Below are positions 719 to 64,000 of a DNA stretch of 64,000 nt, piece by piece (the first letter of the stretch is position 1; every line of letters starts with the position of its first letter). The position numbers and the translations under genes are program-made. This DNA comes from Eledone cirrhosa (taxonomy: Eukaryota), in contig OZ024745.1 of assembly GCA_964016885.1 (NCBI GenBank), forward strand, positions 50,964,001 through 51,028,000, written 5' to 3'. Under the pieces are notes generated by a model. That model was not told the DNA's origin. It saw nothing but the letters and a program-made list of their open reading frames with translations, and did no database searches.

Positions 719-972
719 ATTGATATTATACCCCAGAAAACTGTCGAGTGCTTCGAACCTGTTATAAATATATTTGTTGAATTACCAACAAATTAAATAT
801 CCCTTTGCTTCTATATATATATATATATATATATTCATTAGTTAAGCAAAACAAGACCACAAATTTCACAAGGAAGACATTATTAAAAGATTGTCAACAT
901 AGTTTTAGTTTGATATAAGGAATATAGAGAATATTAATAATAATATTAATAATATTAATAATAATAATGACC

Positions 973-1634: not shown

Positions 1635-1692
<58 letters not shown>

Positions 1693-1697
<5 letters not shown>

Positions 1698-1894
1698 AAC
1701 GAGTAGGACCCCGACGGCTGAGCTCAAGCCGTTTCGACGGCTAATTCTGGACAATTCAGTCCAGAATTAGCCGTCGAAACGGCTTGAGCTCAGCCGTCGG
1801 GGCCCTACTCGTTCCTATTACCCACTCTACTACCCTAAGTATTGAGTACTTTGGTGCGTTATGGTCCACCTGGTTCCTTACCACATTTCCTTCG

Positions 1895-1897
<3 letters not shown>
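1693..1897. repeat. Fold-back palindrome (1693-1818) of an HHR-bearing element end, flanked by (TA)n
   Basis: About 60-bp arms around loop aattca (1753-1758); contains GAAAC-GGC-ttgagctca-GCC-GTC; same family at 52655-52795 and 53300-53492. Confidence 0.85.
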
Positions 1898-1935
<38 letters not shown>

Positions 1936-8900: not shown

Positions 8901-9111
8901 AAGCACATTTATATAAATTTGTTCCGGTTGGTATTTTATCAATAGTACTTATTTTGTGAACTTCGAGGGAACAAAACTTAATGCTGATACCATGGGTGCT
9001 AAACTGGCAACATAAAAGGCATAACATTAAATAAAATTCCAAAAACATATGATAATTCATTCTAACATTAATGGAGGGATATATCATTGTTATTATTTAT
9101 CTATATGTAAG

Positions 9112-9302
9112 GGGCGGTGGATTAGCATTATCGGTAGAGGGTCGGATACCATGCTTTGTCGCATAGAGTTATGTCCCTTGCCATTCTGAGTTCAAATCCC
9201 ACCGAGTTTAACTTTGCCTTTCATCCTTACGGGGTCGATAAAATAAAGTACCAGTAATGCACTGGGTAATTGCTGGCCTTGTGCCAAAAGTAGAAACAAT
9301 TA
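9112..9302 (+). mobile_element. tRNA-derived SINE (main family) with TSD
   Basis: A-box-like ggattagcattatcgg, B box gagttcaaatc, core cctttcatccttacggggtcgataaaataaagtaccag; TSD attatttatctatatgta on both sides. Confidence 0.9.
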
Positions 9303-9547
9303 TTTATCTATATGTATTATTTTTTCTGTAAAGTCTTTTGTGGTGGAGTCCTTGTTTTGGGATCAGAAAACGTAAAAATCCGTATACAAATAAATAGCTT
9401 GCCGTCTTTATTTACACTATTTTAAAATTCTGACAGCAGTTGATATTTGCTTTCCAGCTTTCTGTGGTCAAAGAAAAACGTAGCAATCAACTAATGGCGT
9501 CGATCTAATTAACTATATCCTCTCCTGAAATATACCTTAGAAATCTT

Positions 9548-13655: not shown

Positions 13656-13977
13656 AGCACTTCTGTCCTCCTGATTTTCCCTTTTCCCCCAAAAGGTAGC
13701 CTTGTGTCAATGCGTGTTTTCAATTCACATGCATGTGCAGGGTACATATTTACAGTGATTTCCCTCTTATTTCCTTTGTATTGAAAGTACTTAGTAGTGC
13801 TATTCTTTGTATGTCGTGTGTATGTATAAACATTGGGAGATTATGTATTCACCAGGTTCTTTTTAATTATTCAAAAGGTACTTATTAAGGGAAGGTGTTT
13901 TTTTTTTGTTGGGGGGGGGGGGGGGGGGGGACTTCTGTTTTTAGGTATTTATATTTCGATAACCTATCCCTTTATTG

Positions 13978-14625
13978 TAATAATTGTTTCTACTTTTGGC
14001 ACAAGGCCAGCAATTACCCAGTGTATTACTGGCACTTTATTTTATCGACGTCGTAAGGATGAAAGGCAAAATTAATCTCGGCGGGATTTGAACTCAGAAC
14101 GTAAAGAGCCATAATTATGCTGCAAAGCATGCTGTCTGACGCTCTACCGATACTGCCAATCAACCGCACTTATTACTTTTAATAATGGTTTCTTATATAG
14201 GCACAAGGCCAGCAATTTTTGGGGGAGGGAAAAGTCGATGAAATTGCCTCCAGTGCGTGACTGGTACTTTATTTTATCGACCCCGTAAGGATGAAAGGAA
14301 AAGTTAACCTCGGCGAGATTTGAACTCAGATCATAAATGGCCGTAACTCTATGCGGCAAAGTATGGCATCCGACCCTCTACCGATACTGACAGTCAACCG
14401 CACTTATTACTTTTAATAATTGTTTCTACTTTTGGCACAAGGTCAGTAATTACCCAGTGTATTACTGGTACTTTATTTTATCGACCCCGTATGGATGAAA
14501 GGCAAAGTTAACCTCGGCGGGATTTGAACTCAGATCATAAAGAGCTGTAACTCTATGCTGCAAAGCATGGTGTCCGATTCTCTAGCGATACTGCCAAACC
14601 ACCGCACTTATTACTTTTAATAATG
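13978..14625 (-). mobile_element. Three head-to-tail copies of the main SINE
   Basis: Units about 13978-14170, 14180-14406 and 14416-14607, each followed by cttattacttttaataat. Confidence 0.9.
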
Positions 14626-21315: not shown

Positions 21316-21646
21316 ATTTTCACCAGTTATAATGCGATATGAAATATTGGTTCTACCATGGGCCACATATAAGTAGTTCGCGGGCCGGAGATAAATAGAC
21401 GTGTACCAAACATACACACATTTCTTACTCTCTCTGTCCCTCCCTCTTTCTCTCTTCATTTATATACATATATATATATATTGCCAGGTCAAAGGCCACA
21501 CCTCTTTTCAGCAACGCCAAATAACAACGCTCCACACACGTTGATGTTGTTGAAAAGAGCTGTGGCTTTTGACCTGGCAATAAAAAACTAGACAAAATTC
21601 TTTCTGTACCAAGGCACACACACACACAAGTTTGTGTGTGTGTATG

Positions 21647-22198: not shown

Positions 22199-22548
22199 TC
22201 TAGAATACCAAATTGATTCAAGATGTTTCTAGTTATCTGTCTTCCTGATTTGTCATTAGTGTTATAGTTTTGATGTTTCCCTCCAGATTAGCCCTGATCG
22301 TGCAGGCCTATGATTTCAACTGTGATCACATTGAGTTTTTGTAGTATCTAAGATTATGTTATTTAATGTTCTTATCATTTCTGTCCAAAAGCCTTATACG
22401 TCATGTTGAGTAAAACGAGAAGTTGAGACATATCTGATTTTTTTATGTGTTGTAAACGAAGGAGAATGCAATATGATTGAATTAATTTCGCTTGAGAATC
22501 GACACCAGAGACAATGATCTCCATCAGGGGGATATTATTTGGCACCCG

Positions 22549-22741
22549 GGCGGTGGATTGGCAGTATCGGTAGAGGGTCGGACGCCATGCTTTGCAGCAA
22601 AGAGTTACGGCCCTTTGTGGACTGAGTTCAAATCCCGCCGAGGTTAACTTTGCTTTTCAGCCTTACGGGGTCGATAAAATAAAGTACCAGTAATACACTG
22701 GGATAATTGCTGGCCTTATGCCAAAAGTAGAAACAATTATT
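22549..22741 (+). mobile_element. tRNA-derived SINE (main family)
   Basis: Full consensus match. Confidence 0.9.
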
Positions 22742-23495
22742 ATAAAAGCTACAAAATTGTATAATTTTCTCAAGAATATTAGAGGCAATAATGAATGGGA
22801 TTTCCCTGCAATTTGGAAATTAAAACAGATTCAGAAATTCACATATTCCATTCTATAGCACTTTACAAACCATTTTACTTTAACATTTGTTTCTATTTTA
22901 AGTATAAACACATGTATTGAGAAATATGTATCAAATTACGGAGTACAGTGTATTAAAGGTTTATCATATCCATCTCCAACAGAGATGAAAAGCAAAATCC
23001 TTTCATTTATTGAAACTATTTAGAATCTCCCTTACAATGGTTCTATTTTCTCAAATGAAATTGAATCAAGTATTTCTCCCAGTTCAAGTACCATTCTATT
23101 GCATTCTATTTCTATGTCAAGGACCGAAACATGAATCCTTTCCTGATATTTTTAGTAAATGTAGAGTAATGTTTCTCCGATTAACTATCGTTCCTTGCCT
23201 TTTTGCCTGACTGTCATTAGTTTATTTCATTCATCTCATATACATTAATTGTCTTTAGAGATTCGTGCTACATTTTGGGATAAGGCAACCATTTTGTAAT
23301 TTCCTTCTTTTCACGACTTTGGGGAGTTGAACCACGAGTAAATACGAAGTATTTCAATACAAAAATATTCTAATGAATCTAACGGTTAACAAATATACAT
23401 ATGATTATTTCTTAACTAGTTGCAGATGTATCTAAAACTTACCTTCATTTCTTTATATGAACTATGAATATATACGTATGTATAGGAAGTCGATG

Positions 23496-24850: not shown

Positions 24851-26087
24851 CAATATGGACTACAGTTTCTTGTTTAAGTATAGTATATTCTGTTCCGGGA
24901 TGAGCTAGTAAAAGACAATTCTTTTGATTTTACACGATTTAAATAATTTTTCTACAGGGTTTGGATATATTCTACTTACAACAATCTTTACTCAGCATAG
25001 AAAAATCTAATGTGAAAGAAGTTTGACACTAGATACGTGTAGTTCATACGTTACAACTTATGTACAGTTTACTACTTAAAAATGCTGAAAGGTTTTCACT
25101 GGGTTCTTTCAGACTTTGTATATATCAAATACAATTTCAGATCTGCTTGCAACACCATTTCCTACGATATCTATTTCACTTTTCTCACTAAACTAGTCTG
25201 TGCTATTTCGTCAGGTAAATTAGGTATAGCGGTATACATTACTAGAATTATTGGCATTTGTATACTTCAAATGGAAACAGCCTTTAGACTGTGCACTAAA
25301 TATATACATTAAATAAAATAAACAATCCTTATAGCTATTTTAACTGCAGTATTGAATAAATGTGGAGGGAAACGAAAGGTCCAAAAATTACAGCAATTTC
25401 TAGCATTCATGATTATAGTAATGCTTCTTTCAAAATCGTGTATTATACTCCTTTAATCATACTTTCATGTGTTTATATATTATAAATGTCACGCATACTT
25501 TTCAGGAGTAACATACTTTTAACGAAATTGTCGCTTAAAGTATCACAGTTATAAGAGTAGAAGATAAAATTTGAAATTTAACGACACAACAATCACGTTC
25601 ATTTAAGAACAGGAAGTTTTTTTAGAAAGTTAAATTTATATTAATATTCACAATGAATTTCTTTCATTTAAATAAATATGTTTAGTAAATCAATGACATC
25701 CGTATACCAAAATATTGACACAGCCTACTGTCCACTTCAAAATACGTTGTACGTTGTCTAATAATTTGTATTCTGATGTCCTTATATTTTGTTGGTTGTG
25801 CAGCAGTATATAATGTAATAAAGCAATATATTATTTTACGATTTATTTTATTTACTAGCGGCAATGAAGACCAACACAACATATCACGATGCAAAACATA
25901 GATAAATATGTTATGTTATATTGAATTGATTTAAGGAAACCACGATCCTGATGGGCTGTTGATTCCTGAGTCGGGTTGGATAGATACGGATCGTACATTG
26001 AGCTGATCAATCGCGAATCACGCGTCACACCTGAATAAGTTGAATAATGATATTTGGCACCTCGATCCTACTCATTCTATATATAAG

Positions 26088-26477
26088 GGCGGTGGATTGG
26101 CAGTATCGGTAGAGGGTCGGACGCCATGCTTTGATGCATAGAGTTACGGCCCTTGCTATTCTGAGTTCAAATCCCGCCGAGGTTAACTTTGCCTTTCATC
26201 CTTACGGGGTCGATAAAATAAAGTACCAGTAATGTACTGGGTAATTTCTGGCCTTGTGCCAATAGTAGAAACAATTATATATATATATAAGGGCGGTGGA
26301 TTGGCAGTATCGGTAGAGGGTTGGGCGCCATGCTTTTCAGCATAGTTACGTCCCTTTACGATCTGAGTTCAAATCCCGCCGAGGTTGACTTTGCCTTTCA
26401 TCCTTACGAGGTCGATAAAATAAAGTACCAGTAATGAACTGGGTAATTGCTGGCCTTGTGCCTAAAGTAGAAACAAT

Positions 26478-26480
<3 letters not shown>
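26088..26480 (+). mobile_element. Two tandem copies of the main SINE
   Basis: 26088-26278 and 26291-26480, each preceded by tatatataag. Confidence 0.9.
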
Positions 26481-26527
<47 letters not shown>

Positions 26528-26532
<5 letters not shown>

Positions 26533-26752
26533 AGTAAAATGACAGGCGGCTGGACTGGTGAAATTCCTTAAAGATTTATTATAAACACTATGCACATTTC
26601 AATAACCGGGTTCTATATGAACCCGGTGACATCATCAGGTGATGATGATGTCACAGGGTTCATATAGAACCCGGTCATTGAAATGTGCATAGTGTTTATA
26701 ATAAATCTTTAAGGAATTTCACCAGTCGAGCTTCCTGTCATTTTACTCAATA
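26528..26752. repeat. About 110-bp-arm fold-back palindrome abutting (TA)n
   Basis: tattgagtaaaatgacagg...catcatc aggt gatgatgatg...cctgtcattttactcaata. Confidence 0.9.
26586..26641 (-). ncRNA. Type I hammerhead ribozyme motif in palindrome arm
   Basis: cac-CTGATGA-tgtc-ACCGGGTTC-atata-GAACCCGGT-tatt-GAAA-TGTGCAT-A-gtg. Confidence 0.75.
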
Positions 26753-26989
26753 ATAATTAACTCCGTTCTCGCACCACCAACAAGATTCAACATAAACGAA
26801 GATGGATGAGTTGCATTACGTCAAGTGCTTTTCCTAATGTTACATCACGGTTGACTATACGGAATGACCAGTTCTATCCAGTGGTGAACCAACAAACCTA
26901 AATGAATATATATATATATATATATATCTATATTTTTCTCCCCAAACTACCAAAACACATATCTATTTGTATATGCGCTACAATACGTG

Positions 26990-30680: not shown

Positions 30681-31417
30681 GTAATACACCTGAAACCAAA
30701 TTTGGGAGAGGGATAAATGCAGAGAGAAAGACAATTCAAAATCTCATTTTGTGAGTCTTTTATCGATAAAGTTTTTAACCAATTCAGCTAAACCAAGTGA
30801 TGAAGCCTGAGCACGATCAATTGGTATAGTTGTCAAGCCTAGTCTCTCTTGCAACATTGTAGAGTGAATGTAAGATTGTATAAGCTTGAGCTTTGAGAAA
30901 CTACTTTCACCACTGATACTGGAAGTGTGAGAAGGATCCTCAATGCAACATAAGGGAAATTATCTAAAAGTTTTTGTTGGAAAAACTCGTGGCCTATAGA
31001 AAGACGCGAACGTCCTGAAAGTTTCGTATGCGCACGATTTTCACTCAGTTAATTTGCTTGTTCCGCTCAGACTGAATCTACTCGATTATTTGTCCCTGTG
31101 TGAAATCAACCAGGATAAAAAACATCCCTCAATAAAACTTAAATTTATCTATTTATTTTTCAAAATTGTTTTTGATTTGGAGAAATGCGCCCCGTGAAAT
31201 CATCGTCATTATAACGTTAAGGGGAGAATAACTATAGGGCCACTCAACCTGCTAGAAATCGCAGCCAAATATACTAGTCACACCATACTGTATTAAAGGC
31301 GAAATGGCACATTGTATAATATACTCCTGAAGGCATTATGTGCCATTTTACTTTAAAAAATAAAATGGTCATGATGTGAACGCCTTTGGCTATATGAATG
31401 TGCAATCAGAGCTGAAA

Positions 31418-32166
31418 TAATTGTTTCTACTTTAGGCACAAGGCCAGCAATTATCCAGTACATTATTGGTACTTTATTTTATCGACCCCGTAAGGATGAA
31501 AGGCAAAGTTAACCTCGGCTGGATTTGAACTCAGACTGTAAAGGGACGTAACTGCGCTAGAAAGCATGGCGTCCAACCCTCTACCGATACTGCCAATTTA
31601 CCGCCGTTAGAGCTGAAATAATTGTTTCTACTTTAGGCCCAATGCCAGCAATTACCCAGTGCATTACTGGTACTTTATTTTATCGACCCCGTAAGGATGA
31701 AAGGCAAAGTCAACCTCGGCGGGATTTGAACTCAGATCATAAAGGGACGTAACTATGCTGGAAAGCATGGCGTCCGACCCTCTACCGATACTGCCAATCC
31801 ACAATGCTAACCAACAACAGTTTTTATGCTGCTCTGCGGTTATCGCTATTCAGTCAACATATTTTCAAAACCAAAGTATTTCATATCAACCAAAATATTA
31901 ATATTTTGTTATCAGGAATGTGGCTTTGTCCCGAATATTAGGATCACTCCCACTTTAATTACAGTTTCTTATATAGGCACAAGGCCAGCAATTTTTTTTA
32001 GGGTGGGGGGTGGGGTGGGGGGGGAGTCAATTAAATCGACCCCAGTGTGTGACTCGTATTTTATTTTATCGACCCCATAAGGATGAAAGGCAAAGTTAAC
32101 CTCGGCGGGATTTGAACTCATATCGTAAAGGGCCGAAACCCTATGCTGCAAAGCCTGGTGTCCAAC
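31418..32166 (-). mobile_element. Three copies of the main SINE (31418-31606, 31619-31802, 31963-32166)
   Basis: Consensus match; agagctgaaata duplicated at the junction of the first two. Confidence 0.9.
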
Positions 32167-35498: not shown

Positions 35499-35756
35499 TT
35501 ATATTAATAAAAGGAATTCCAACTTTGTCTGATTTACTCGTTTTATTTACAATCCTTTAACATTTATAATGGTATTAGAATGAAATAGTATGGTAGAATA
35601 TTAAATGTTAAGTGTTAATTGAACAAGTACTTTCATGCTTTCGCAATCTTCAGGTTCATAATGTGTGGTGACAGTCAAGTTTGCAATTTTCAACTGTTGA
35701 AAATTGCAAACTTGACTGTCACCACACAGTTATGCTGACAGTTGGAATTCCTTTTA

Positions 35757-40200: not shown

Positions 40201-40378
40201 ATTGGCAGTATCGGTAGAGGGTCGGACATGATTTCCAGCATAGTTACGTCCCTTTACGATCTGAGTTCAAATCCCGCCGAGGTTGACTTTGCCTTTCATC
40301 CTTACGGGGTCGATAAAATAAAGTACCAGTAATGCACTGGGTAATTGTTGGCCTTGTGCCTAAAGTAGAAACAATTAT
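40201..40378 (+). mobile_element. Main SINE inserted into an RTE-derived element (about 39930-40410)
   Basis: Consensus match. Confidence 0.85.
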
Positions 40379-40419
40379 TTGAAATCGAGTCGCAGCCATC
40401 ATGTATGTATGTCACTCTT

Positions 40420-40969: not shown

Positions 40970-43900
40970 TCTTCTGGTTTTATAATTTCACAAATTTTTT
41001 CCCAATTAAGAGAGTCGGTTTCTAACAGAGGCACAAGACTCTTTCATTGGAATTTAAACATCAACTAGGTAGATTATGTATGCATGCATGTGTAGATATG
41101 GATGTTATTGTATGTGTGGATGTGTATGTTTTGAGTTGAATGTGTGCATGTGTATATGCTTTGCATCTGTACATGTGTATATGCAGTTATTAGATGCAAA
41201 ATATTTGGAATGTTTTACATATTTTTACTGTTCCATTAATGGATTGTACTTGTAATTTCCTAACTAGATGTGTTCTTTCTGTTCCTGTGAAGCCTAGCTT
41301 CTCAAGATTTGTATTGAGGCAGTTACTAACATACCCCAGTGCCCCAATAATCACAGGCATAAATCTGAAGGTGTAATCAAGGTGGAGTATTTGCAGATTT
41401 CTCATCAGTTCTGCATAAATATTCTCCTTTTCGCTAATCTTTGATATTATATTGGCATCTGCTGGGCAGCTAATTTCCACTAGTGTGCATGCTTTCTTCT
41501 CCCTGTCCCATATCATAATATCTGGTATGTTATGCCTGCATATTATTGGGGTTTTTACTGGAACATTCCACCAGTACTCTTTCATATTATGTACATGGAT
41601 GTCTTCCACATTGCTGTAGCTTTTAATGTGTTTATTATCGGATCTATCTTTTCTACGGATTGCATTGTACAGTGTTTTTGCCTCATAGGTAGATAGTACC
41701 GCGATGACATCTTTGGACAGCTGCTGATGACATGGGTGATATCCTCGATGTTAGTTCTGCAGTGTCTGCACTTGTTATCACATTTAGGTGATTTGCCTGC
41801 ATCCCAATCTCTTTTGTGAATCAGGTATTTCGTGTTAATCTCCTGTTCTTGGATTGCAAAAACGTATCCTTCAAAGTGGGAGCCAATATAGCGGTTGTTG
41901 GTCCAAGATAGACTACTTTCCTTATCTATATTACTCTCACTCTGGAGCTTCCTGGCAACATATCCATGCATGATTTTTTTGCCGATAAGTATGCAGTTTT
42001 TCATCCATGGATTCACTGCGATACTGCTGAGCGACTTCCCTGGATGTGAGTTTTTGATTATCACGCAGGGAATATCTCTCGAGGAGTTCCTCCCCAACTT
42101 TCAAGATCTTATCTGTTTCATGCAGATAGACTTGCTCGAGAAACGGGCTCCTACGCTTCGAGGTTCGTAGATGTTGTCAGAGAGATATGATGCGACATTC
42201 AAATGTTGTCTGGACTGATGTTAGGCCTCTGCCTCCCTGCTTACGTTTCAAGTAAAGGCGGTCTATGTCACTGTTAATGTGGAAGTTTCCGGTGTTGTTC
42301 AGTATTTTTCGAGTTCCAACATCAACTGCTCGGATTTCGTCTATCGTCCAATTGAGTATTCCAAACGTTGGTGTTAGGACAGGCACAGCAAACACATTGT
42401 GAGCCATTGTTTTGTTTTGCGCAGAGAGTTCCGATGACCAGATCTTTCTTAATCGGGTGTAGTATTCCCTGGTTACGTGTTCTTTATTACAGATACCATT
42501 ATAGGATATGTTCTCATCTATCCCCAGGTATCTGTAGCAGTCCTCATCAGATATCGGTGAAACAGTTAGGCCATTGATGAGAATGTTGCTAGATTGGGTT
42601 GTTGTTTTCCCCGCTTTACAGTCATATATGAGCATTTATCTTGGCCAAACTCCATTCCTATATCCTTTGAGAACGTTGGAACCAGGTCAAGATTTTTCTT
42701 CATCCCATCCATGTTCTTGGCATAGAGTTTCAGATCGTCCACAAAGAAATTATGGGTTAGGTTCGTCTTTCTGTCCTCCTGTGAGCCAATGATGTATCCC
42801 TCACATTTCTTGAGCAGAAAGGACAAGGGGTTTAATGACAAGATGAATAATATCACAGAGAGACTGTCCCACCTGAAATATACCGCTGCAATATTTTATT
42901 TTATCAGTGAAAATAGAGTCCTCCCTCTCTGTATTTATCCTTAGGATAGTAGCCCAAGAAGAAGACAGCCTCTCTATGCCACTGACAATAATGTCTGGGA
43001 CTTTAGCAAGTTGGAGGGCCTCTATCATCCAAGAGTGGGTAACAGAATCGAAAGCTTTCCTGTAGTCCATCCAGACTGTAGCCATATCCGCCTAAGTTGT
43101 CGCACATCCGACATCGCAGTTTTGTTGATTAAGAGTTGTTCAGCACATCCCTAAACCCTTTTCTTTCCAGCTGCTTGTTCATCTGTGATGATGTTATTAT
43201 TTTTACAGTGATCTTGGAGGAATAGGTTCAAGCAGGCTGTATACATCTTATACATCAGGTTCTGGCATGCAATGTGTCGGTAGTTTTTTGTCAAGTGGGT
43301 GTATTTGTTCTTTGGGACCAGTAATGTTTGTGCTAATGTCAACCATTCTGGTATAAGTGTATCTCCCTTGAGAACTTGTTGGTAGAGGTCAGTAAGATAC
43401 CTCCGATAGAATATCAGTTTTTTGTACCAGTAGCCGACAATCATGTCTCTTCCTGGTTTTTCTTATCTTGGAGTTTTCCTATTACAGTCTCAAGAGTACC
43501 CTAACTTATTTCGTATGTTTTTGTTGTAGTGTAGGAGCAATAGTTCTTTCGGATTTCTCTTAGCCACACTGCATCTTGGTTAAAATTCTTCTTTTCACCC
43601 CATATTTTGCTCAAAAAGGAATCTATGTCTTTCTGGGATGGGGCCTCAGTGACACTTATTATTTTGTTCTTCATATCTCTATAGACTGATGTTTGGTTTC
43701 GTCTGAATCTTTTATTAAGCACTTTTCTCTCATCTACCTTCTTCAGGTATCGGCGTTTTTCGCTAACAGCTCTCAATTCTTGTTTGAGGGTGATCAGCTT
43801 ATATTGAAGAGTTCTGGTTCTACTGTTACCAAACATCGTCTCTATTTTATTTTTCACTCTTTGTTGGTAAGGAGTGAGGTTTTTTTGTGTTTGTTTGCAT

Positions 43901-44040
43901 GTAAGGAGCATTGTCACATATCCTATGGTTTTTCGTAGGTCAGCAATCTTTTTTTCTATTTTAGTTATATATGATGGTATTTTTGGTGCTGTTCTGTTCT
44001 TGTTAATATCTCTGCTATCACCAAGATAATGCTTCACTGT
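40970..44040 (-). mobile_element. R4/Dong-like non-LTR retrotransposon (RT, CCHC knuckle, restriction-like endonuclease), frameshifted and 5'-truncated
   Basis: RT motifs YRHIAC, WMDYRKAFDSVTH, GIFQ, FFVDDLKLY, YRYLG, RLYLKRKQGGRGL; CRHC..E...HVISSC; PDIMIWD...VEISCP. Confidence 0.9.
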
Positions 44041-44101
44041 CGTATGTATGTATGTATGTATGTATGTATGTATGTATGTATGTATGTATGTATGTATGTA
44101 T

Positions 44102-44445
44102 GCATATCATCTTGGTTAAGAGAGTGGGACTGGCTTTGTGCAGTGCCTTTGCTCACTATAAAAGCTTCACGGCACTGGCATTGCTTTATATCTGGAGATG
44201 TCTCTGCACTTGTCATCACATGGGCCCAGCACTATGTGTCATAATTGTCACAAGTGTAGTGTTTGTACCAGAGTTTTCAAGTCGCTGGCTGGACTAAAAA
44301 GTCACACTCGTTCAGCGCATCGGTAGGGGTTCTCCTACGTGGATATAAAGTAGTGGCCGTACTCGAAAACGAGTTGGCAGCAACCATGTATGTATGTACG
44401 TATGTACGTATGTATGTATGTATGCATGTATGCATGTATGTATAA
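44102..44445 (+). mobile_element. RTE-derived non-autonomous element 3' half with C2H2 zinc-finger remnant and (ATGT)n tail
   Basis: About 44255-44326 translates CSVCTRVFKSLAGLKSHTRSAHR*. Confidence 0.7.
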
Positions 44446-52249: not shown

Positions 52250-52630
52250 TAGCCACACTGTGATCGGGTGTGGCAATCAAACGCCATCAGTTTGAGTCCT
52301 GTGTTAACGCTTAGCCATTTACATCATTCAAAAACGCTTATCCATTTACCATGATATCAAGTGATGCATGTGTGTGACGCTTTTACAGTGAAGACAGGTT
52401 TTATACTAGGCCAATCCCACTCACGGAGCTACGATAACAATAATATGAAAAGAAGAACATATCAATATCATTGATTACCACAGGTTGTACATCAGAATTT
52501 CCTCTCTCCTAGACAAATATCCTAATTAGGGCTAGGGGTCTCTCACTCCCTGTGGGCTTAGCGTGCACTCAGATACAAGCCTGAATATTTCTATGTCCCT
52601 ATACATACATACTAGGTGGCTGTCAATGGA
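52250..52630 (-). mobile_element. Degenerate RTE-derived element
   Basis: catatattatggtagcc... and ttcctctctcctagac...ggctagggg similarity to 20230-20310. Confidence 0.5.
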
Positions 52631-52942
52631 ATATTCAAGAGGAATTTCAAGAGGAAAACAAAGAAAGTGTGGTAAGAAAGCAGGTGGACCATAACGCACC
52701 ACAGTACTCGATACTTAGGGTAGTAGAGTGGGTAATAGGAAAAGAGTCAGGATCCCGACGGCTGAGCAAGCCGTTTCGACGGCTATTTCTGAACTAAAGT
52801 AAGATTTTTTTTTAGTCTGGTAAAATACTAAACAAAATACTAAACAAAATACCTATTTGAGTCCTTATCCAGAACTCAAAATACCTATTTATATTGGAGC
52901 TACTGGCCGATCTCATATAAACTTAAAATTAAAACATATGCT

Positions 52943-53116
52943 GGGGTCGGCTGAAAAGTTCATAGGCTGACACTGGCGGATTCAGGCTAGAGCTGGGAAT
53001 TCTTGCAATGCATCAATTTCAAATCTTATTAATAACTGCATTGTTTCTTTCCAGGAACTATGTTGAACAATAAATATTATTTGGTTAGTCCATGAGAGTA
53101 TCTTGTTCAGCCGACC
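52943..53116. mobile_element. Mariner-like MITE
   Basis: Imperfect TIRs ggtcggctgaaaagttcataggctgac / gttagtccatga...ttcagccgacc. Confidence 0.6.
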
Positions 53117-53167
53117 ATTCTAGACAACAAATACAGACATACAACCATACATAGATACACAAACACC

Positions 53168-53492
<325 letters not shown>

Positions 53493-53633
53493 ATATATAT
53501 ATACTTAAGGTAAACATTGATGCAATTCAATTCAAGCACTCAACGTACTTTTTCCACATAGGAGTGACGGAGTATATATATCGAATAAGAAAAAGCGAAG
53601 TAGTTTCAGATGTTAAAGTCCTTTAATGATAAT

Positions 53634-53708
53634 GCTGTGATACATATTTCAATGACGACAGTGGCCACATGGTTCGGTGCGCCCAGTGCCGTCACATCAT
53701 CAGACAGC
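53634..53708 (-). ncRNA. Type I hammerhead ribozyme motif
   Basis: gctgt-CTGATGA-T-GTGACGGCA...TGTCGTCAT-T-GAAA-TATGTAT-C-acagc; AUC triplet. Confidence 0.85.
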
Positions 53709-54715
53709 TCCTTACATAATAAGGTTATGTTTCCGAGGCAATCCAAATTGAATCGCCATGGGAACGGACAAAGCGTGTGCTCTTGAATTCTTCGCCCGTT
53801 CCCTTGTCAGTCCCAATTCACCCCACCGGTCTGCGCAGGCGCAAGTCCGAAGGAAGTTGACCATCAACTACCCCAGAGTTCTACGAAATTCTCCTAGGCA
53901 GGTCCCCCTCTCAACCAAACAATCACCCCATCCAGATCTGTATTATGACACGATTATAGTTTACTGCTAGCCACCATGCCAGTGGCATTTGGCCGAAAGC
54001 TAGTGGGGGTGGGAGAGTATGAGTTTCAATAGGTCTCAATACTACCCCTAAATTAAGCATGGACAGTAGGATTGACCATCACCCGCTAAGAGAATATATA
54101 CTTATTTCTAGGTATTATGGTTTCACTGTGGAAATTATGATTGAGAATTAGAAATTAAAACTAAAAATTTAAAATTTAAAATTAAAAAATTAAAAAAATT
54201 ACTAGTTAAAATCTTGATTGAAGTAAGTAAAAAATATATGTACATATAATAACTAGTAAATAGGGAGAAGTTTAAATTATAGTAAGAAGGATCAATATTA
54301 CAGATATATTATCTATATATTGAACGAGGGTAAATTACAGTATGGAACGTAGTAGTTAGGCAAATACATAGTTAATATCTCTATCACATGAACCAACACA
54401 AAAAATACAAAATACACAAAAAATACAAAAAATACAAAAATACATAGATGCAAAATGAGATAGGAGATATATATGAGAAACATATACGAGGAAGGTAAGC
54501 TCTATGGAAATGAGGGTATATGTGGTTAAGATGATTGTCAATTTTGTCCATTTAAAGTGTATATAAAAATTCGTTATCTGATGGAGTGAGGGGCTTCCAT
54601 TCAAGGCCTCTGTGTAAATGCAATTTGCTGCAGGAAAATAGGGGTTTATCGTTGTTTTTAGTTCCGCGTATTTATCTTGTCGAAAAAAAAAAATATATAT
54701 ATATATATATATATG

Positions 54716-56058
54716 TCCCGTCCGGCTGGCGCCCGGCTAGATATACCGGCATTTTATCTTTTCAGGAATCCCCCTACACTCCAGTGCAAAGATGCCGCAC
54801 GCCCTCTCAAGTCAGCGAGGGGGGGGGGGGGGTAACGTTAAAGAAAATTGATAGTTACAACAATAAAGGCTGAACAGAGAACACATTTTTTTATCAAACA
54901 ATAATTTGTACAACCATAATGGAAATTCCAAGTAACAGAAAATATTTAAATTACATTGTTAGAGCCTCAGGGTATACAATATTTTTTGTTCGGCCCTCCG
55001 GAGCAAAGATGAAGAGATTGTTTGGCGAGCTCACCCTAGAGCATCCTACATACAATTGACCATGGGAGAATCACTGATTTCGTAGCTAGTCTCGCGGAGA
55101 AGCTCTGTAGACGTTGACCTCTGGACACTCCTGTCAGGAGCAGGTAAGCTGTAGTGACTTAGAGGCCTACCACCAATCTCCAGGACACTGTTTTCAAGAC
55201 AAATGAGTGCCTCATTGAAAACGACATCGTATGTTACATATGGATTGTGTCTGCGTGTGCGGTGGAGGATGTCCTCAGCTAGACTTTCACGGTGGTTGTT
55301 CCACAGTGCGAGAGGGTCGGCGAGATCGCAGTTGTGCAGCATAATAGCAAAAGGTTTTCGCAGCTAAGAAGGGACTTTAGCAGTTGGTGCTTCTTGCAGG
55401 GTGAGGTGCCAATAGCTGTCATCGTGTAACATACCACGCATCTGGCAAGCCAAACGGTAAGTGGAACATTGATGGCCATTGATGGTTCTCAGATCTTGGA
55501 AAGATTGTGGTCCTCTAAGCTCGAAAAGTAACAATGATGATAAGCCGTCTGTGCTTTCGTGAAATAAATAAGTTTTGATTTTGTGTATGCAAAAATATCT
55601 GTACACGATTATATATTAAAATAACAGTTTAAGCAAAGAATAGTTGCTTTCACCCTTAACGGGATCTTCTGAAACTAAAAAAATCCGTCTGTGAACGCAG
55701 AAATAAATATTTCGAAAAACGTTATCTAATGCAGACATCAGACATACAGAGACATATTATAAGGGCGTTACGTTATAGCTATGTATCTATCTAAAAAGAC
55801 AGACTAAGAAAAAGAGGGGAATGTTGTGCGACGTCATGAGAAAAAGTGAGGAATGACGTATAACCGGAAGTGTTGACATTTGAAATTTTAAAGAAGTGAA
55901 TATTTAAATAATGTCTTTAATCTTTTAACAAATTCAGCAGACAAATACCCTCACTTTTTTACTTGGAAAAAGTTACATCTATGGTGCAAATTTGGTGCTG
56001 TTTGGTCCAGCCGTTTGGCGGAAAGTTTGTTACCTAAATACGGCCGTCAGCTTTATAG

Positions 56059-56061
<3 letters not shown>
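54716..56061 (-). mobile_element. Internally deleted Helitron inserted in (TA)n
   Basis: Rep/helicase fragments RGPQSFQDLRTING..TYRLAC..RGML.DD, PLALW..HRESLAEDIL and C-terminal YVGCSRV..TKNIVY.EAL; GC-rich hairpin-like 3' end near 54720-54750. Confidence 0.8.
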
Positions 56062-56130
<69 letters not shown>

Positions 56131-56136
<6 letters not shown>

Positions 56137-56462
56137 AGATCAAAAGATGGTTAAAGGAGTTCCATGTATTTTATTATGCGCATTTCAAAAACAAACATCA
56201 TCATGCAATAATATTTGTGTTTTCATCAGATAAAACAGGAGAACATGATATGAAGGCTAAAAAACAGTTGTAGATAGTGCAGTTTTAAATCAACATGCAT
56301 TTTAAATCAACTGCACTATCCACAAGTGTTTTTTAGCCTTCATATCATGTTCTCCTGTTTTATCTGATGAAAACACAAATATTATTGCATGATGATGTTT
56401 GTTTTTGAAATGCGCATAATAAAATACATGGAACTCCTTTAACCATCTTTTGATCTTATATT
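56131..56462. repeat. About 154-bp-arm near-perfect palindrome directly after (TA)n
   Basis: aatataagatcaaaagatgg...gatagtgcagtt [spacer] aactgcactatc...ccatcttttgatcttatatt. Confidence 0.95.
56358..56424 (+). ncRNA. Type I hammerhead ribozyme motif (mirror copy on minus strand at about 56169-56235)
   Basis: ttttat-CTGATGA-AAACA...TGTTTTT-GAAA-TGCGCAT-A-ataaaa; palindromic helix III ATGCGCAT. Confidence 0.85.
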
Positions 56463-56550
56463 ATGTATACTCCAGTCCTACAAACTGTAGAGTGCTTCTT
56501 ATCCGATATCTGCATTGCTTTATTGTACTACAATAAAACTCACCTCCTAC

Positions 56551-56618
<68 letters not shown>

Positions 56619-56664
56619 AATTCCATCTCGCCCGTTCCCTCAATCTATTTTATTTCTCATTCTT

Positions 56665-56700
56665 TCTTCTGATGAAGGACTACCGTCCGAAACGTTAAGA
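56665..56700 (+). ncRNA. Minimal hammerhead motif (PLE-type)
   Basis: tctt-CTGATGA-A-GGAC-tacc-GTCC-GAAACGTT-aaga. Confidence 0.7.
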
Positions 56701-57072
56701 CCCTCTTGCTGCTATATTAAGCGTTATCCTTGTGTGTATATGTATATATATATATATAAAAGAAAATTTTGGCCAGTCAGTTTCCTGTATACGAGCGACA
56801 AATGGCCGGCTTTGCCAAATTCAAATAAAAAAGAAAATTTTCGCTCTACATGGATGAATACAATACATGTAATCTGAGTTTTTCGAATAGTAATAATAAC
56901 ATTCGATTCGTTTGCAATTATGCAATCAAGCCTCAATTTTATAGCCAACTCAGTAGAATGAATACTTCATTCTTGCTCTTGTGTTGGCATGTGAACAGAA
57001 CTGCACCCTTCATCAGTACAGCTCACTGTTCACCTGCAAACGAATCGAATGTTATTATTAATATCAGATTAG

Positions 57073-57123
<51 letters not shown>

Positions 57124-57205
57124 TATATATATAAAATCAAGGTCTAGCAAATAGAGAAAAAGTTTTAAAATAAATTTTAAAAACTTCGCTGTACTTACTA
57201 TATGT

Positions 57206-57287
57206 GCCTTTACCGCGGTTTCAAGTTCCAGAATAAACGGATAATCCAAGCGGATTTCCATTGAGAAGGGAACCATCTTCAGAAGGC
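57206..57287 (-). ncRNA. Type I hammerhead ribozyme motif
   Basis: gcctt-CTGAAGA-T-GGTTCC...GGAACT-T-GAAA-CCGCGGT-A-aaggc; palindromic helix III ACCGCGGT; GUA triplet. Confidence 0.85.
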
Positions 57288-57609
57288 TCTTCTCACTCGG
57301 AGAATATAAAATTCCCGAGTTCAAATCACAAACTGACGCCATACAAAACCATTCCCAGATGAGAGTAGATGATAGAAGAAATAATTCTGTCTGGAGCCGT
57401 GTGCAAAGACAAAAGGCAGGGTGGACAGGTCAATGTCCTTCCACTAGAAATAGCAGCAGTCCAAACGGCCAAGTTTTATCTCTACCTTAGGGGAAATTAA
57501 TAATAATAAAGCATGAATTCCTACGTGTAAAAAATACATATAGGGATGCAAGTATCATCCAACCGTATGCCAATGTGGTTCTATGGCGGGTTAATAAATT
57601 AACAAGGGG

Positions 57610-61700: not shown

Positions 61701-61757
61701 CATGCGAACCTGGAATTTCATACAGGTGTGTTATGTATGAAATTCCAGGTTCGCATG
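61701..61757. repeat. Perfect 24-bp-arm hairpin
   Basis: catgcgaacctggaatttcataca-ggtgtgtta-tgtatgaaattccaggttcgcatg. Confidence 0.9.
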
Positions 61758-63230: not shown

Positions 63231-63766
63231 TGTTATCACAACAAAAACAACATCGGATCTGTGGACAAAATAGTCAGATACAAACAAGTGTAGAGAACGT
63301 CCAATCACGGGCCGAGAATTAACCAGGTGCGCATATCGCAAACAATACAAGAAAGACAACCGATATAAAAAAAACAAATAAACAAACAACCAATATAAAT
63401 AAAAACAAAAAAAAATAAAAAAAATAAATGAATATACCAACCAACGTATATAAATACGACCAGATACACGTACCCAAGCCTAACCACCCACACATATATA
63501 TATAGGATACAAAAATACACACGTATATATATATAAACACAGACAAACACATATATATTGGGTAATGACCTAGAAACACGTTGATTGTTCCTCGATGTCA
63601 GTGTTGAACAAACGGATGACGAAAGTTCCCCTCATAGGCACAATCCAGGCATGGTTGTTTGTGGAAGACCAACAGTCGCCCGCGCATACCAGTTTCTCAT
63701 CTCCACGCCTCCGATATAAATCATCAATAATTATTTCATAAAATAATTATTGATAATTTATATCGG

Positions 63767-63953
63767 TGGCGGTGGATTGGCAGTATCGGTAGAGGGTCGG
63801 ACGCCATGCTTTCCAGCATAGTTACGTCCCTTTACGATCTGAGTTCAAATCCCGCCGAGGTTGACTTTGCCTTTCATCCTACGGGTCGATAAAATAAAGT
63901 ACCAGTAATGCACTGGGTAATTGCTGGCCTTGTGCCTAAAGTAGAAACAATTA
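63767..63953 (+). mobile_element. Main SINE with TSD attatttcataaaataat and an inverted flank copy at its 5' junction
   Basis: Consensus match; TSD at about 63731-63748 and 63950-63967. Confidence 0.9.
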
Positions 63954-64000
63954 TTTCATAAAATAATGTATAGGTTGTTCGGAAAACTTTTTTATACAGG

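What the first reader, a model, noticed from the sequence alone, without database searches (positions are those of the whole stretch)
1693..1818. Palindrome whose apex appears to be the ribozyme's own helix II: self-priming fold-back signature
Seen: the right arm reads ...gtccagaattagccgtc-GAAAC-GGC-loop-GCC-GTC-ggggcc, the 3' half of an HHR with a GUC site. The 5' core CUGANGA is replaced by an inverted copy of the downstream sequence. A second copy of the family (53300-53424) folds in the same region, and a third (52655-52795) ends there. Inference: the cDNA folds back on the helix II hairpin and copies itself, so the ribozyme structure sets the point of the inverted end typical of Penelope-like insertions.
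Basis: partly seen in the sequence, partly recalled or inferred. Interest (0 to 1): 0.7.

Follow-up and report, generated by a model that had tools for sequence, protein, structure and literature searches.

The report
Penelope-type insertion with fixed inverted junction
This hairpin is most likely the inverted end that Penelope-type jumping genes are known to leave when they insert into TA repeats; its turning point sits at a fixed spot inside a probable self-cleaving RNA motif, which could help show how such inverted ends are made.

Summary
The palindrome is real: 60-bp arms (59 of 60 complementary), a 6-nt spacer, a 77-nt tail on one side and (TA)n at both ends. This is the known Penelope-like (PLE) insertion shape. 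The family is very abundant in public runs. Those runs and window copy 3 show a native upstream sequence that forms a long two-part helix II, so a hammerhead is likely. Its CUGANGA core was never seen. Copy 3 does not end at the apex; it runs about 30 nt further. Arm ends cluster within about 8 nt at the top of helix II, so breakpoints are not random. The native loop is missing from both palindromic copies, and some copies have a full inverted arm with no matching sequence on the tailed side. Both facts argue against fold-back self-copying. More likely two cDNAs, primed from the two target strands, stop at one point and join head to head (about 50%). That point may be a transcription start: there is an initiator-like word, with a TATA-like word 29-31 nt upstream. 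Two other hammerhead-bearing palindromes in the window have their apex elsewhere, so helix II is no general rule. No RT or endonuclease gene could be linked.

The parts
1641..1695 (.). (TA)n target run on the left
1693..1752 (-). inverted arm without tail (copy of 1759-1818); its outer end joins (TA)n
   Evidence: (AT)n loose ends before 1705 in 1316 reads and behind 1818 in 3248 reads
1753..1758 (+). 6-nt spacer; matches native sequence of the right arm at 5 of 6 letters
   Evidence: X4 record 9 aligns from 1753
1756..1762 (+). initiator-like word (YYANWYY, A at 1758); also the 3' strand of the upper stem of helix II
   Evidence: stem (copy 3) and by-eye pairing loose ends; initiator consensus recalled
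1759..1818 (+). direct arm
1765..1775 (+). 3' strand of the lower stem of inferred helix II
   Evidence: 9-letter complement about 30 nt upstream in loose ends of X4 and X5; chance about 1.4e-4
1776..1799 (+). GAAA, 6-bp helix III, GUC: 3' half of a probable type I hammerhead
   Evidence: the half motif alone is at chance level
1819..1895 (+). 77-nt one-sided tail, shared by all three copies
1896..1933 (.). (TA)n target run on the right
53300..53492 (+). copy 2: older palindrome plus tail, after (TA)n(TG)n and before a short TA run
52655..52827 (-). copy 3: no inverted arm, keeps most of native helix II (upper stem 52817-52811 with 52798-52792, 12-nt loop); no (TA)n at its 3' end and no CTGANGA upstream
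56124..56469 (.). control: palindrome of another family with a full hammerhead-like motif in both arms; apex 55-80 nt upstream of the core
26528..26752 (.). control: palindrome of another family; apex at the CTGATGA core and helix I

Best explanation
The element is the short terminal piece (pLTR end plus tail) of a Penelope-like retroelement inserted into (TA)n. A PLE protein supplied in trans cuts both strands of the microsatellite, and each 3' end primes its own cDNA on the element RNA: one from an internal start site at about 1818, giving the 60-nt arm, and one from about 1895, giving arm plus tail. Both cDNAs stop at nearly the same point (about 1753-1760, the top of a long helix II) and are joined head to head by end joining with a few bases of trimming. 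The stop is most likely the 5' end of the RNA, that is a Pol II start at the initiator-like word at 1758 (roughly even odds). Otherwise it is an RNA break or RT stall at the top of helix II. Shown: the geometry, two fixed (TA)n junctions, clustered arm ends and a native long helix II. Inferred: PLE origin, two cDNAs, and the cause of the stop.
For: Shape equals the published PLE signature: an inverted 5'-truncated copy, a one-sided tail and a (TA)n bias (PMC8557442). A purified PLE protein cuts and extends both target strands, starts at two internal sites that bracket the tail, and gives shorter products on 5'-shortened RNA (PMC11167929). Two fixed junctions with (AT)n: behind 1818 (3248 reads, 71 contigs) and behind 1885 or 1892 (1443 and 1259 reads). 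Arm ends cluster: 1173 reads and 103 contigs leave at 1743 with a variant arm whose shared letters stop at the mirror of about 1756. Spacer variants with 3, 6 or 7 bases left out at 1753 occur in 13, 9 and 6 contigs of X1. Nine of 15 joints shown run from 1747-1752 to 1811-1862, seven of them beyond 1818. Initiator-like word at the apex (chance 3-8% within 7 positions), with a TATTTAW word starting 29 and 31 nt before it in the two X4 loose ends (counted by eye). PLE pLTRs are reported to hold the transcription start (PMC2377424; PMC3846280). The window holds five other hammerhead-like motifs near (TA)n (3 found by descriptor against 0 in 10 resampled sequences; 2 more by eye).
Against: No RT or GIY-YIG gene is linked: no genome is held, and 118 of 157 filtered ORFs scanned gave one RT hit in an unrelated element and no GIY-YIG. 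CUGANGA was not seen. The tail (77 nt) is longer than the 30-40 nt reported as usual. A single central deletion of about 10 nt turns a fold-back product into the apex of copy 1, so fold-back is not excluded. One search shows only 15 of 94 joints, 12 of 59 rows of letters between joints and 20 of 490 loose ends, and the reference itself limits how far an arm can align. The spacer variants appear in contigs only (0 raw reads in X18). The initiator and TATA words were noticed after the fact, 5 of the 7 TATA-like letters are also needed for helix II pairing, and copy 3 has TATTTTA. In D. virilis Penelope the start lies about 120 nt upstream of the ribozyme, not inside it (46 nt plus a 75-nt intron). 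Copy 3 has no (TA)n at its 3' end.
Confidence: 0.5

Rival explanations
1. One reading: the tailed cDNA passes the terminal loop of helix II, folds back on the upper stem, copies itself to 1818, and later central deletions remove the native loop.
For: The junction cluster lies within about 5 nt of the native terminal loop (loose ends). The arms of copy 1 are 59 of 60 identical while copies differ by 13-23% or more. One deletion of about 10 nt explains the apex of copy 1. Self-priming was proposed for PLE junctions (PMC3846280).
Against: Neither palindromic copy keeps the loop. No intact-loop product is among the rows shown (tables 4, 5c, 7), and the X1 loose-end consensus at 1753 is native, not inverted. 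The upper stem is weak (-2.7 kcal/mol, 31 of 200 shuffles as good) and its G-U pair becomes a mismatch in cDNA. Zero-spacer junctions (9 contigs) and seven joints landing in the tail need extra steps. The control palindromes have their apex elsewhere.
Confidence: 0.2
2. The palindrome arose once or a few times and is copied as a unit from palindromic master copies (a non-autonomous PLE derivative); the fixed apex is inherited, not remade.
For: Same outer ends and same apex region in copies 1 and 2; the vast majority of laid contigs lack the native upstream (25 of 21,972 in X1 show it at 1753).
Against: The spacer varies from contig to contig (table 4). Copies without an arm (copy 3) and with a shortened tailed side exist. 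Within copy 1 the arms share the differences that separate it from other copies, which needs many masters or regeneration.
Confidence: 0.15
3. Not a retroelement: a hairpin-ended non-autonomous DNA element that targets (TA)n, with the hammerhead half motif a coincidence.
For: Half motif at chance level; no core seen; no Rfam match; no linked RT.
Against: The inverted repeat is not terminal: a 77-nt tail lies outside it. The upstream complement that completes helix II is present in two organisms. Neighbouring palindromes of the same build carry full hammerhead-like motifs, although Rfam misses those too.
Confidence: 0.1

Closest known systems
Inverted pLTR plus tail of endonuclease-bearing PLEs (Penelope/Poseidon, Neptune, Naiad; PMC8557442, PMC3846280)
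   Same: Head-to-head inverted 5'-truncated copy, one-sided tail, (TA)n target bias, probable hammerhead in the repeat.
   Different: No ORF body between the repeats here; tail of 77 nt rather than 30-40; junction fixed to within about 8 nt inside helix II, whereas published inverted copies are described as variably truncated; clade not determined.
Poseidon of Anolis carolinensis, PAc (PMC11167929)
   Same: Two fixed RT-start-like ends downstream of the ribozyme cleavage site that bracket a tail; AT-rich target; insertion of uncleaved RNA.
   Different: The parts read do not discuss the inverted arm; in PAc the ORF starts at stem II, and no long frame is open here.
Minimal type I hammerheads of metazoan PLEs (PMC4209133)
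   Same: Large helix II; dispersed truncated copies; pairs of motifs close together on opposite strands were already noted there.
   Different: Here helix III is a stable 6-bp hairpin, as reported for fungal and protist PLEs rather than metazoan ones; helix II is two-part with about 30 nt between its lower strands; most copies lack the 5' half.
Animal non-LTR retrozymes (10.64898/2026.07.22.740005)
   Same: Short non-coding PLE-related repeats tied to a type I hammerhead.
   Different: Those are head-to-tail tandems with complete ribozymes; these are dispersed head-to-head copies with half a ribozyme.

Membership tests
Penelope-like element (EN+) | ORF with PLE reverse transcriptase and GIY-YIG endonuclease | not testable with these tools
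   No genome held; no GIY-YIG among 118 of 157 window ORFs scanned; collection scans gave no true copy
Penelope-like element (EN+) | Inverted 5'-truncated copy adjoining the 5' end | tested here: met
   Copies 1 and 2
Penelope-like element (EN+) | Tail present at one end only | tested here: met
   1819-1895; fixed ends at 1818 and about 1892 in reads; longer than the usual 30-40 nt
Penelope-like element (EN+) | Microsatellite target bias (Neptune, Naiad) | tested here: met
   2 of 3 window copies; (AT)n loose ends in X1, X18 and X5
Penelope-like element (EN+) | Tandem or partial-tandem pLTR-ORF-pLTR copies | not testable with these tools
   No long copy could be retrieved
Type I hammerhead ribozyme | CUGANGA core before helix II | tested here: inconclusive
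   Absent from all 3 window copies; loose ends show only 30 letters and stop just short of where the core should lie
Type I hammerhead ribozyme | Helix II closed before GAAA | tested here: met
   9-letter complement upstream in X4 (2 contigs) and X5 (5 contigs); two-part stem in copy 3 (weak: z -1.8)
Type I hammerhead ribozyme | GAAA, helix III and UH cleavage triplet | tested here: met
   Copies 1 and 3, not copy 2; half motif alone at chance level
Type I hammerhead ribozyme | Helix I pairing across the cleavage site; self-cleavage | not testable with these tools
   5' strand not retrieved; needs an in vitro assay
MITE or non-autonomous DNA transposon | Inverted repeats at both termini | tested here: not met
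   A 77-nt tail lies outside the inverted repeat
Non-LTR retrozyme | Head-to-tail tandem units each with a complete hammerhead | tested here: not met
   Dispersed copies, no tandem array at these places

The most novel reading that the evidence does not exclude
This family has its promoter inside its own ribozyme: a TATA-like word on the 5' strand of helix II and an initiator at the top of the helix. Transcripts from the upstream repeat would then lack the catalytic 5' half and could not cut themselves, while a downstream repeat would be complete. RT starting at the two internal sites near the RNA 5' end would give two short run-off cDNAs that join head to head. The apex of PLE inverted ends would then mark the transcription start, which explains the inverted pLTR and the tail by one mechanism.
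Probability: 0.25. Interest if true: 0.7.

Novelty: new member of a known kind. Interest (0 to 1): 0.42.

Why it matters
How PLEs make their inverted ends and tails is described as unresolved (PMC8557442, PMC11167929). A very abundant family whose junction is fixed to within a few bases, with two fixed target junctions, allows three models (two run-off cDNAs, fold-back, inherited master) to be told apart from one genome assembly and one set of capped RNA ends. The structure itself is a known kind; the value lies in the test case.

Tried and rejected
No whole genome is held. Rfam: 0 matches at gathering score in the whole window; 21 weak matches in 52400-57600, none a hammerhead, so Rfam says nothing either way. 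Pattern scans for more copies: metagenome contigs 0 and then 4 loci, viral contigs 0 and then 6, genome contigs 0. All 10 loci were dropped: none aligned beyond 19-24 letters. A protein search with the open frame through copy 3 found none at E 0.01 among 1 candidate. A protein search with an unrelated RT-element frame gave 80 unnamed hits and no host name. No RNA holder was listed. Read ends at 1746, 1753 and 1765 in X18 coincide with AATT words and were set aside as restriction ends of a RAD library (enzyme inferred). A 3' splice site at the apex was considered and rejected because copies keep the letters before the AG. Endonuclease cutting at the ATT word beside the apex remains a minor untested option. 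Earlier findings of the scan: nothing in 4 look-ups. The Frangieh supplements held as text gave no hits; their figures and the GenBank file could not be seen and may bear on 5' ends. Pairing between the loose ends and window sequence was read by eye, not folded by program.

Full report
Observation. The palindrome is as described: arms 1693-1752 and 1759-1818 with one mismatch (1708/1803) and a 6-nt spacer, MFE -124.3 kcal/mol, z -22.4. A 77-nt tail (1819-1895) follows, and (TA)n runs lie on both sides. Two more copies lie at 53300-53492 (+) and 52655-52827 (-). The right arm holds GAAA, a 6-bp helix III and GUC at 1776-1799. That half motif alone is not informative: 14 hits in the window, 3 of them from this family, against 2-13 in 10 resampled sequences. 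No CTGANGA lies in any copy. The window is eukaryotic, rich in (TA)n and repeats. It looks like an octopus genome to me, but that is recalled from its 200-bp repeat family and no call confirmed it.

The family in public runs. No genome is held, so I laid 4 of the 20 listed runs on 1696-1895 at 80% likeness. X1 gave 21,972 contigs, X18 24,433 of 12,467,656 raw reads, X5 532 contigs and X4 (a second organism) 3 contigs; these are not copy numbers, and X1 may be the source of the window. Two outer junctions are fixed. (AT)n follows 1818 in 3248 reads and 71 contigs, and follows 1885 or 1892 in 1443 and 1259 reads. Only the best-supported rows are shown (15 of 94 joints, 12 of 13 indels, 12 of 59 rows of letters between joints, 20 of 490 loose ends), which limits every count below.

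Native upstream sequence. Loose ends before 1753 or 1754 (2 contigs in X4, 125-129 nt long; 5 in X5; 25 in X1, agreement 0.6) show what lies upstream in copies that are not inverted. In X4 and X5 the motif CGGCTATTT lies about 30 nt upstream. It is the complement of the strand before GAAA (chance about 1.4e-4). Only 30 letters are printed, so the place where CUGANGA should be is just out of view. Window copy 3 matches this upstream sequence for about 30 nt beyond 52795 (chance about 2e-6), so it does not end at the apex. It folds into a two-part helix II: a lower stem, an internal loop, a 7-bp upper stem and a 12-nt terminal loop (weak, z -1.8, 14 of 200 shuffles as stable). By eye the X4 and X5 loose ends can form the same upper stem with varying letters. 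Copy 3 loses the match at about 52827 and has no core further up.

Where the apex lies. In these coordinates the native terminal loop spans about 1747-1754 and the 3' strand of the upper stem 1755-1761. Inner arm ends fall from about 1753 to 1760. The left arm of copy 1 stops at the mirror of 1759. In copy 2 the two arms meet within a base or two of 1758. A variant arm in 1173 reads and 103 contigs shares letters only up to the mirror of about 1756. Spacer variants lacking 3, 6 or 7 bases at 1753 occur in 13, 9 and 6 contigs of X1 and in no raw read of X18, where AATT cut sites flank the apex.

Fold-back or two cDNAs. Fold-back on the native hairpin should keep its loop and the base of the upper stem between the arms, about 14-16 nt. 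Copies 1 and 2 have 6 and 4 nt, and no intact-loop product is among the rows shown. Nine of 15 joints shown join an arm complete to 1747-1752 to positions 1811-1862; seven land beyond 1818, where the tailed side has nothing from which the arm could be copied. Nine contigs have no spacer at all. Against this reading, one central deletion of about 10 nt would turn a fold-back product into copy 1, later deletion could produce the asymmetric copies, and the reference limits how far arms can align. In vitro, a PLE protein cuts and extends both target strands, starts at two internal sites that bracket the tail, does not need ribozyme cleavage, and gives shorter products on 5'-shortened RNA (PMC11167929). 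Two cDNAs joined head to head fit the two fixed outer ends directly. I put this at 0.5, fold-back at 0.2, inherited palindromic masters at 0.15 and a non-PLE element at 0.1.

Why a fixed stop. The letters at 1756-1762 fit an initiator (consensus recalled; chance 3-8% within 7 positions). A TATTTAW word starts 29 and 31 nt before the A at 1758 in the two X4 loose ends. PLE pLTRs are reported to contain the start site (PMC2377424; PMC3846280). This was noticed after the fact, 5 of the 7 TATA-like letters also serve helix II, and in D. virilis the start lies about 120 nt upstream of the ribozyme. An RNA break or RT stall at the top of the helix is about as likely.

Controls in the window. Three full hammerhead-like motifs were found by descriptor (56669 +, 57282 -, 53703 -; 0 in 10 resampled sequences) and two more by eye inside other palindromes. 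In 56124-56469 the apex lies 55-80 nt upstream of the core; in 26528-26752 it lies at the core. Four shorter palindromes were not assigned.

Known and new. The inverted truncated copy, the one-sided tail and the (TA)n bias are the published PLE signature (PMC8557442, passages). Self-priming was proposed from palindromic junctions (PMC3846280, part 1 of 5 and passages). Hammerhead pairs on opposite strands were noted in PMC4209133 (parts 1-2 of 4). Of PMC11167929 I read parts 1-2 of 4 and passages and searched its text supplements without hits. Of PMC2377424 and PMC6962438 I saw passages, and of 10.64898/2026.07.22.740005 part 1 of 5. Eight searches of the held library listed no paper whose title or opening abstract lines describe this family or a junction fixed in helix II; most listed papers were seen as listings only, and subscription journals and Repbase are not covered. 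Membership is not proven: no RT or GIY-YIG gene is linked and the core is unseen. It works like a PLE terminal insertion and is probably one.

Verdict. Observation partly confirmed; interpretation partly supported. A new member of a known kind, interest 0.42. The boldest open reading, a promoter inside the ribozyme with two run-off cDNAs, has probability about 0.25 and would deserve 0.7.

Noticed in passing
window 56124-56552: Palindrome with 161-nt arms, 24-nt spacer and an 84-nt tail between (TA)n runs; full hammerhead-like motif (6-bp helix I, palindromic helix III, AUA triplet) in both arms.
   Followed up: partly
window 26528-26906: Palindrome with 110-nt arms whose apex lies at the CTGATGA core of a hammerhead-like motif; tail of about 150 nt before (TA)n.
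   Followed up: partly
window 53635-53710 (-), 57200-57290 (-), 56665-56700 (+): Three more full hammerhead-like motifs of different families, each 47-132 nt upstream of a TA run; the one at 53703 shares a TA run tail to tail with copy 2.
   Followed up: partly
window 21479-21582, 35657-35734, 61701-61757, 63702-63776: Four shorter palindromes, at least two next to TA runs; family not assigned.
   Followed up: no
window 719-834 and 1909-2028: A 116-120 nt repeat present twice in opposite orientation around copy 1, each next to a (TA)n run.
   Followed up: no
window 41190-44106 (-) and 1-717: Broken non-LTR retrotransposon with an RVT_1 match at 42569-42895; 1-717 is a 96% identical partial copy. 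RTE-like by recollection only.
   Followed up: partly
window 9100-9316, 13975-14625, 22548-22747, 26078-26491, 31408-31802, 40201-40380, 63768-63963: A roughly 200-bp repeat in more than 10 copies, some in tandem pairs; resembles an octopus SINE-like family (recalled, untested).
   Followed up: no
window 52828-52900: Upstream of copy 3: a 12-bp unit repeated 2.6 times and a duplicated 13-mer around a small hairpin, possibly a complex insertion junction.
   Followed up: no
window 52935-53125: Short element with terminal inverted repeats of about 14 bp, possibly a mariner-type MITE (recalled, untested).
   Followed up: no
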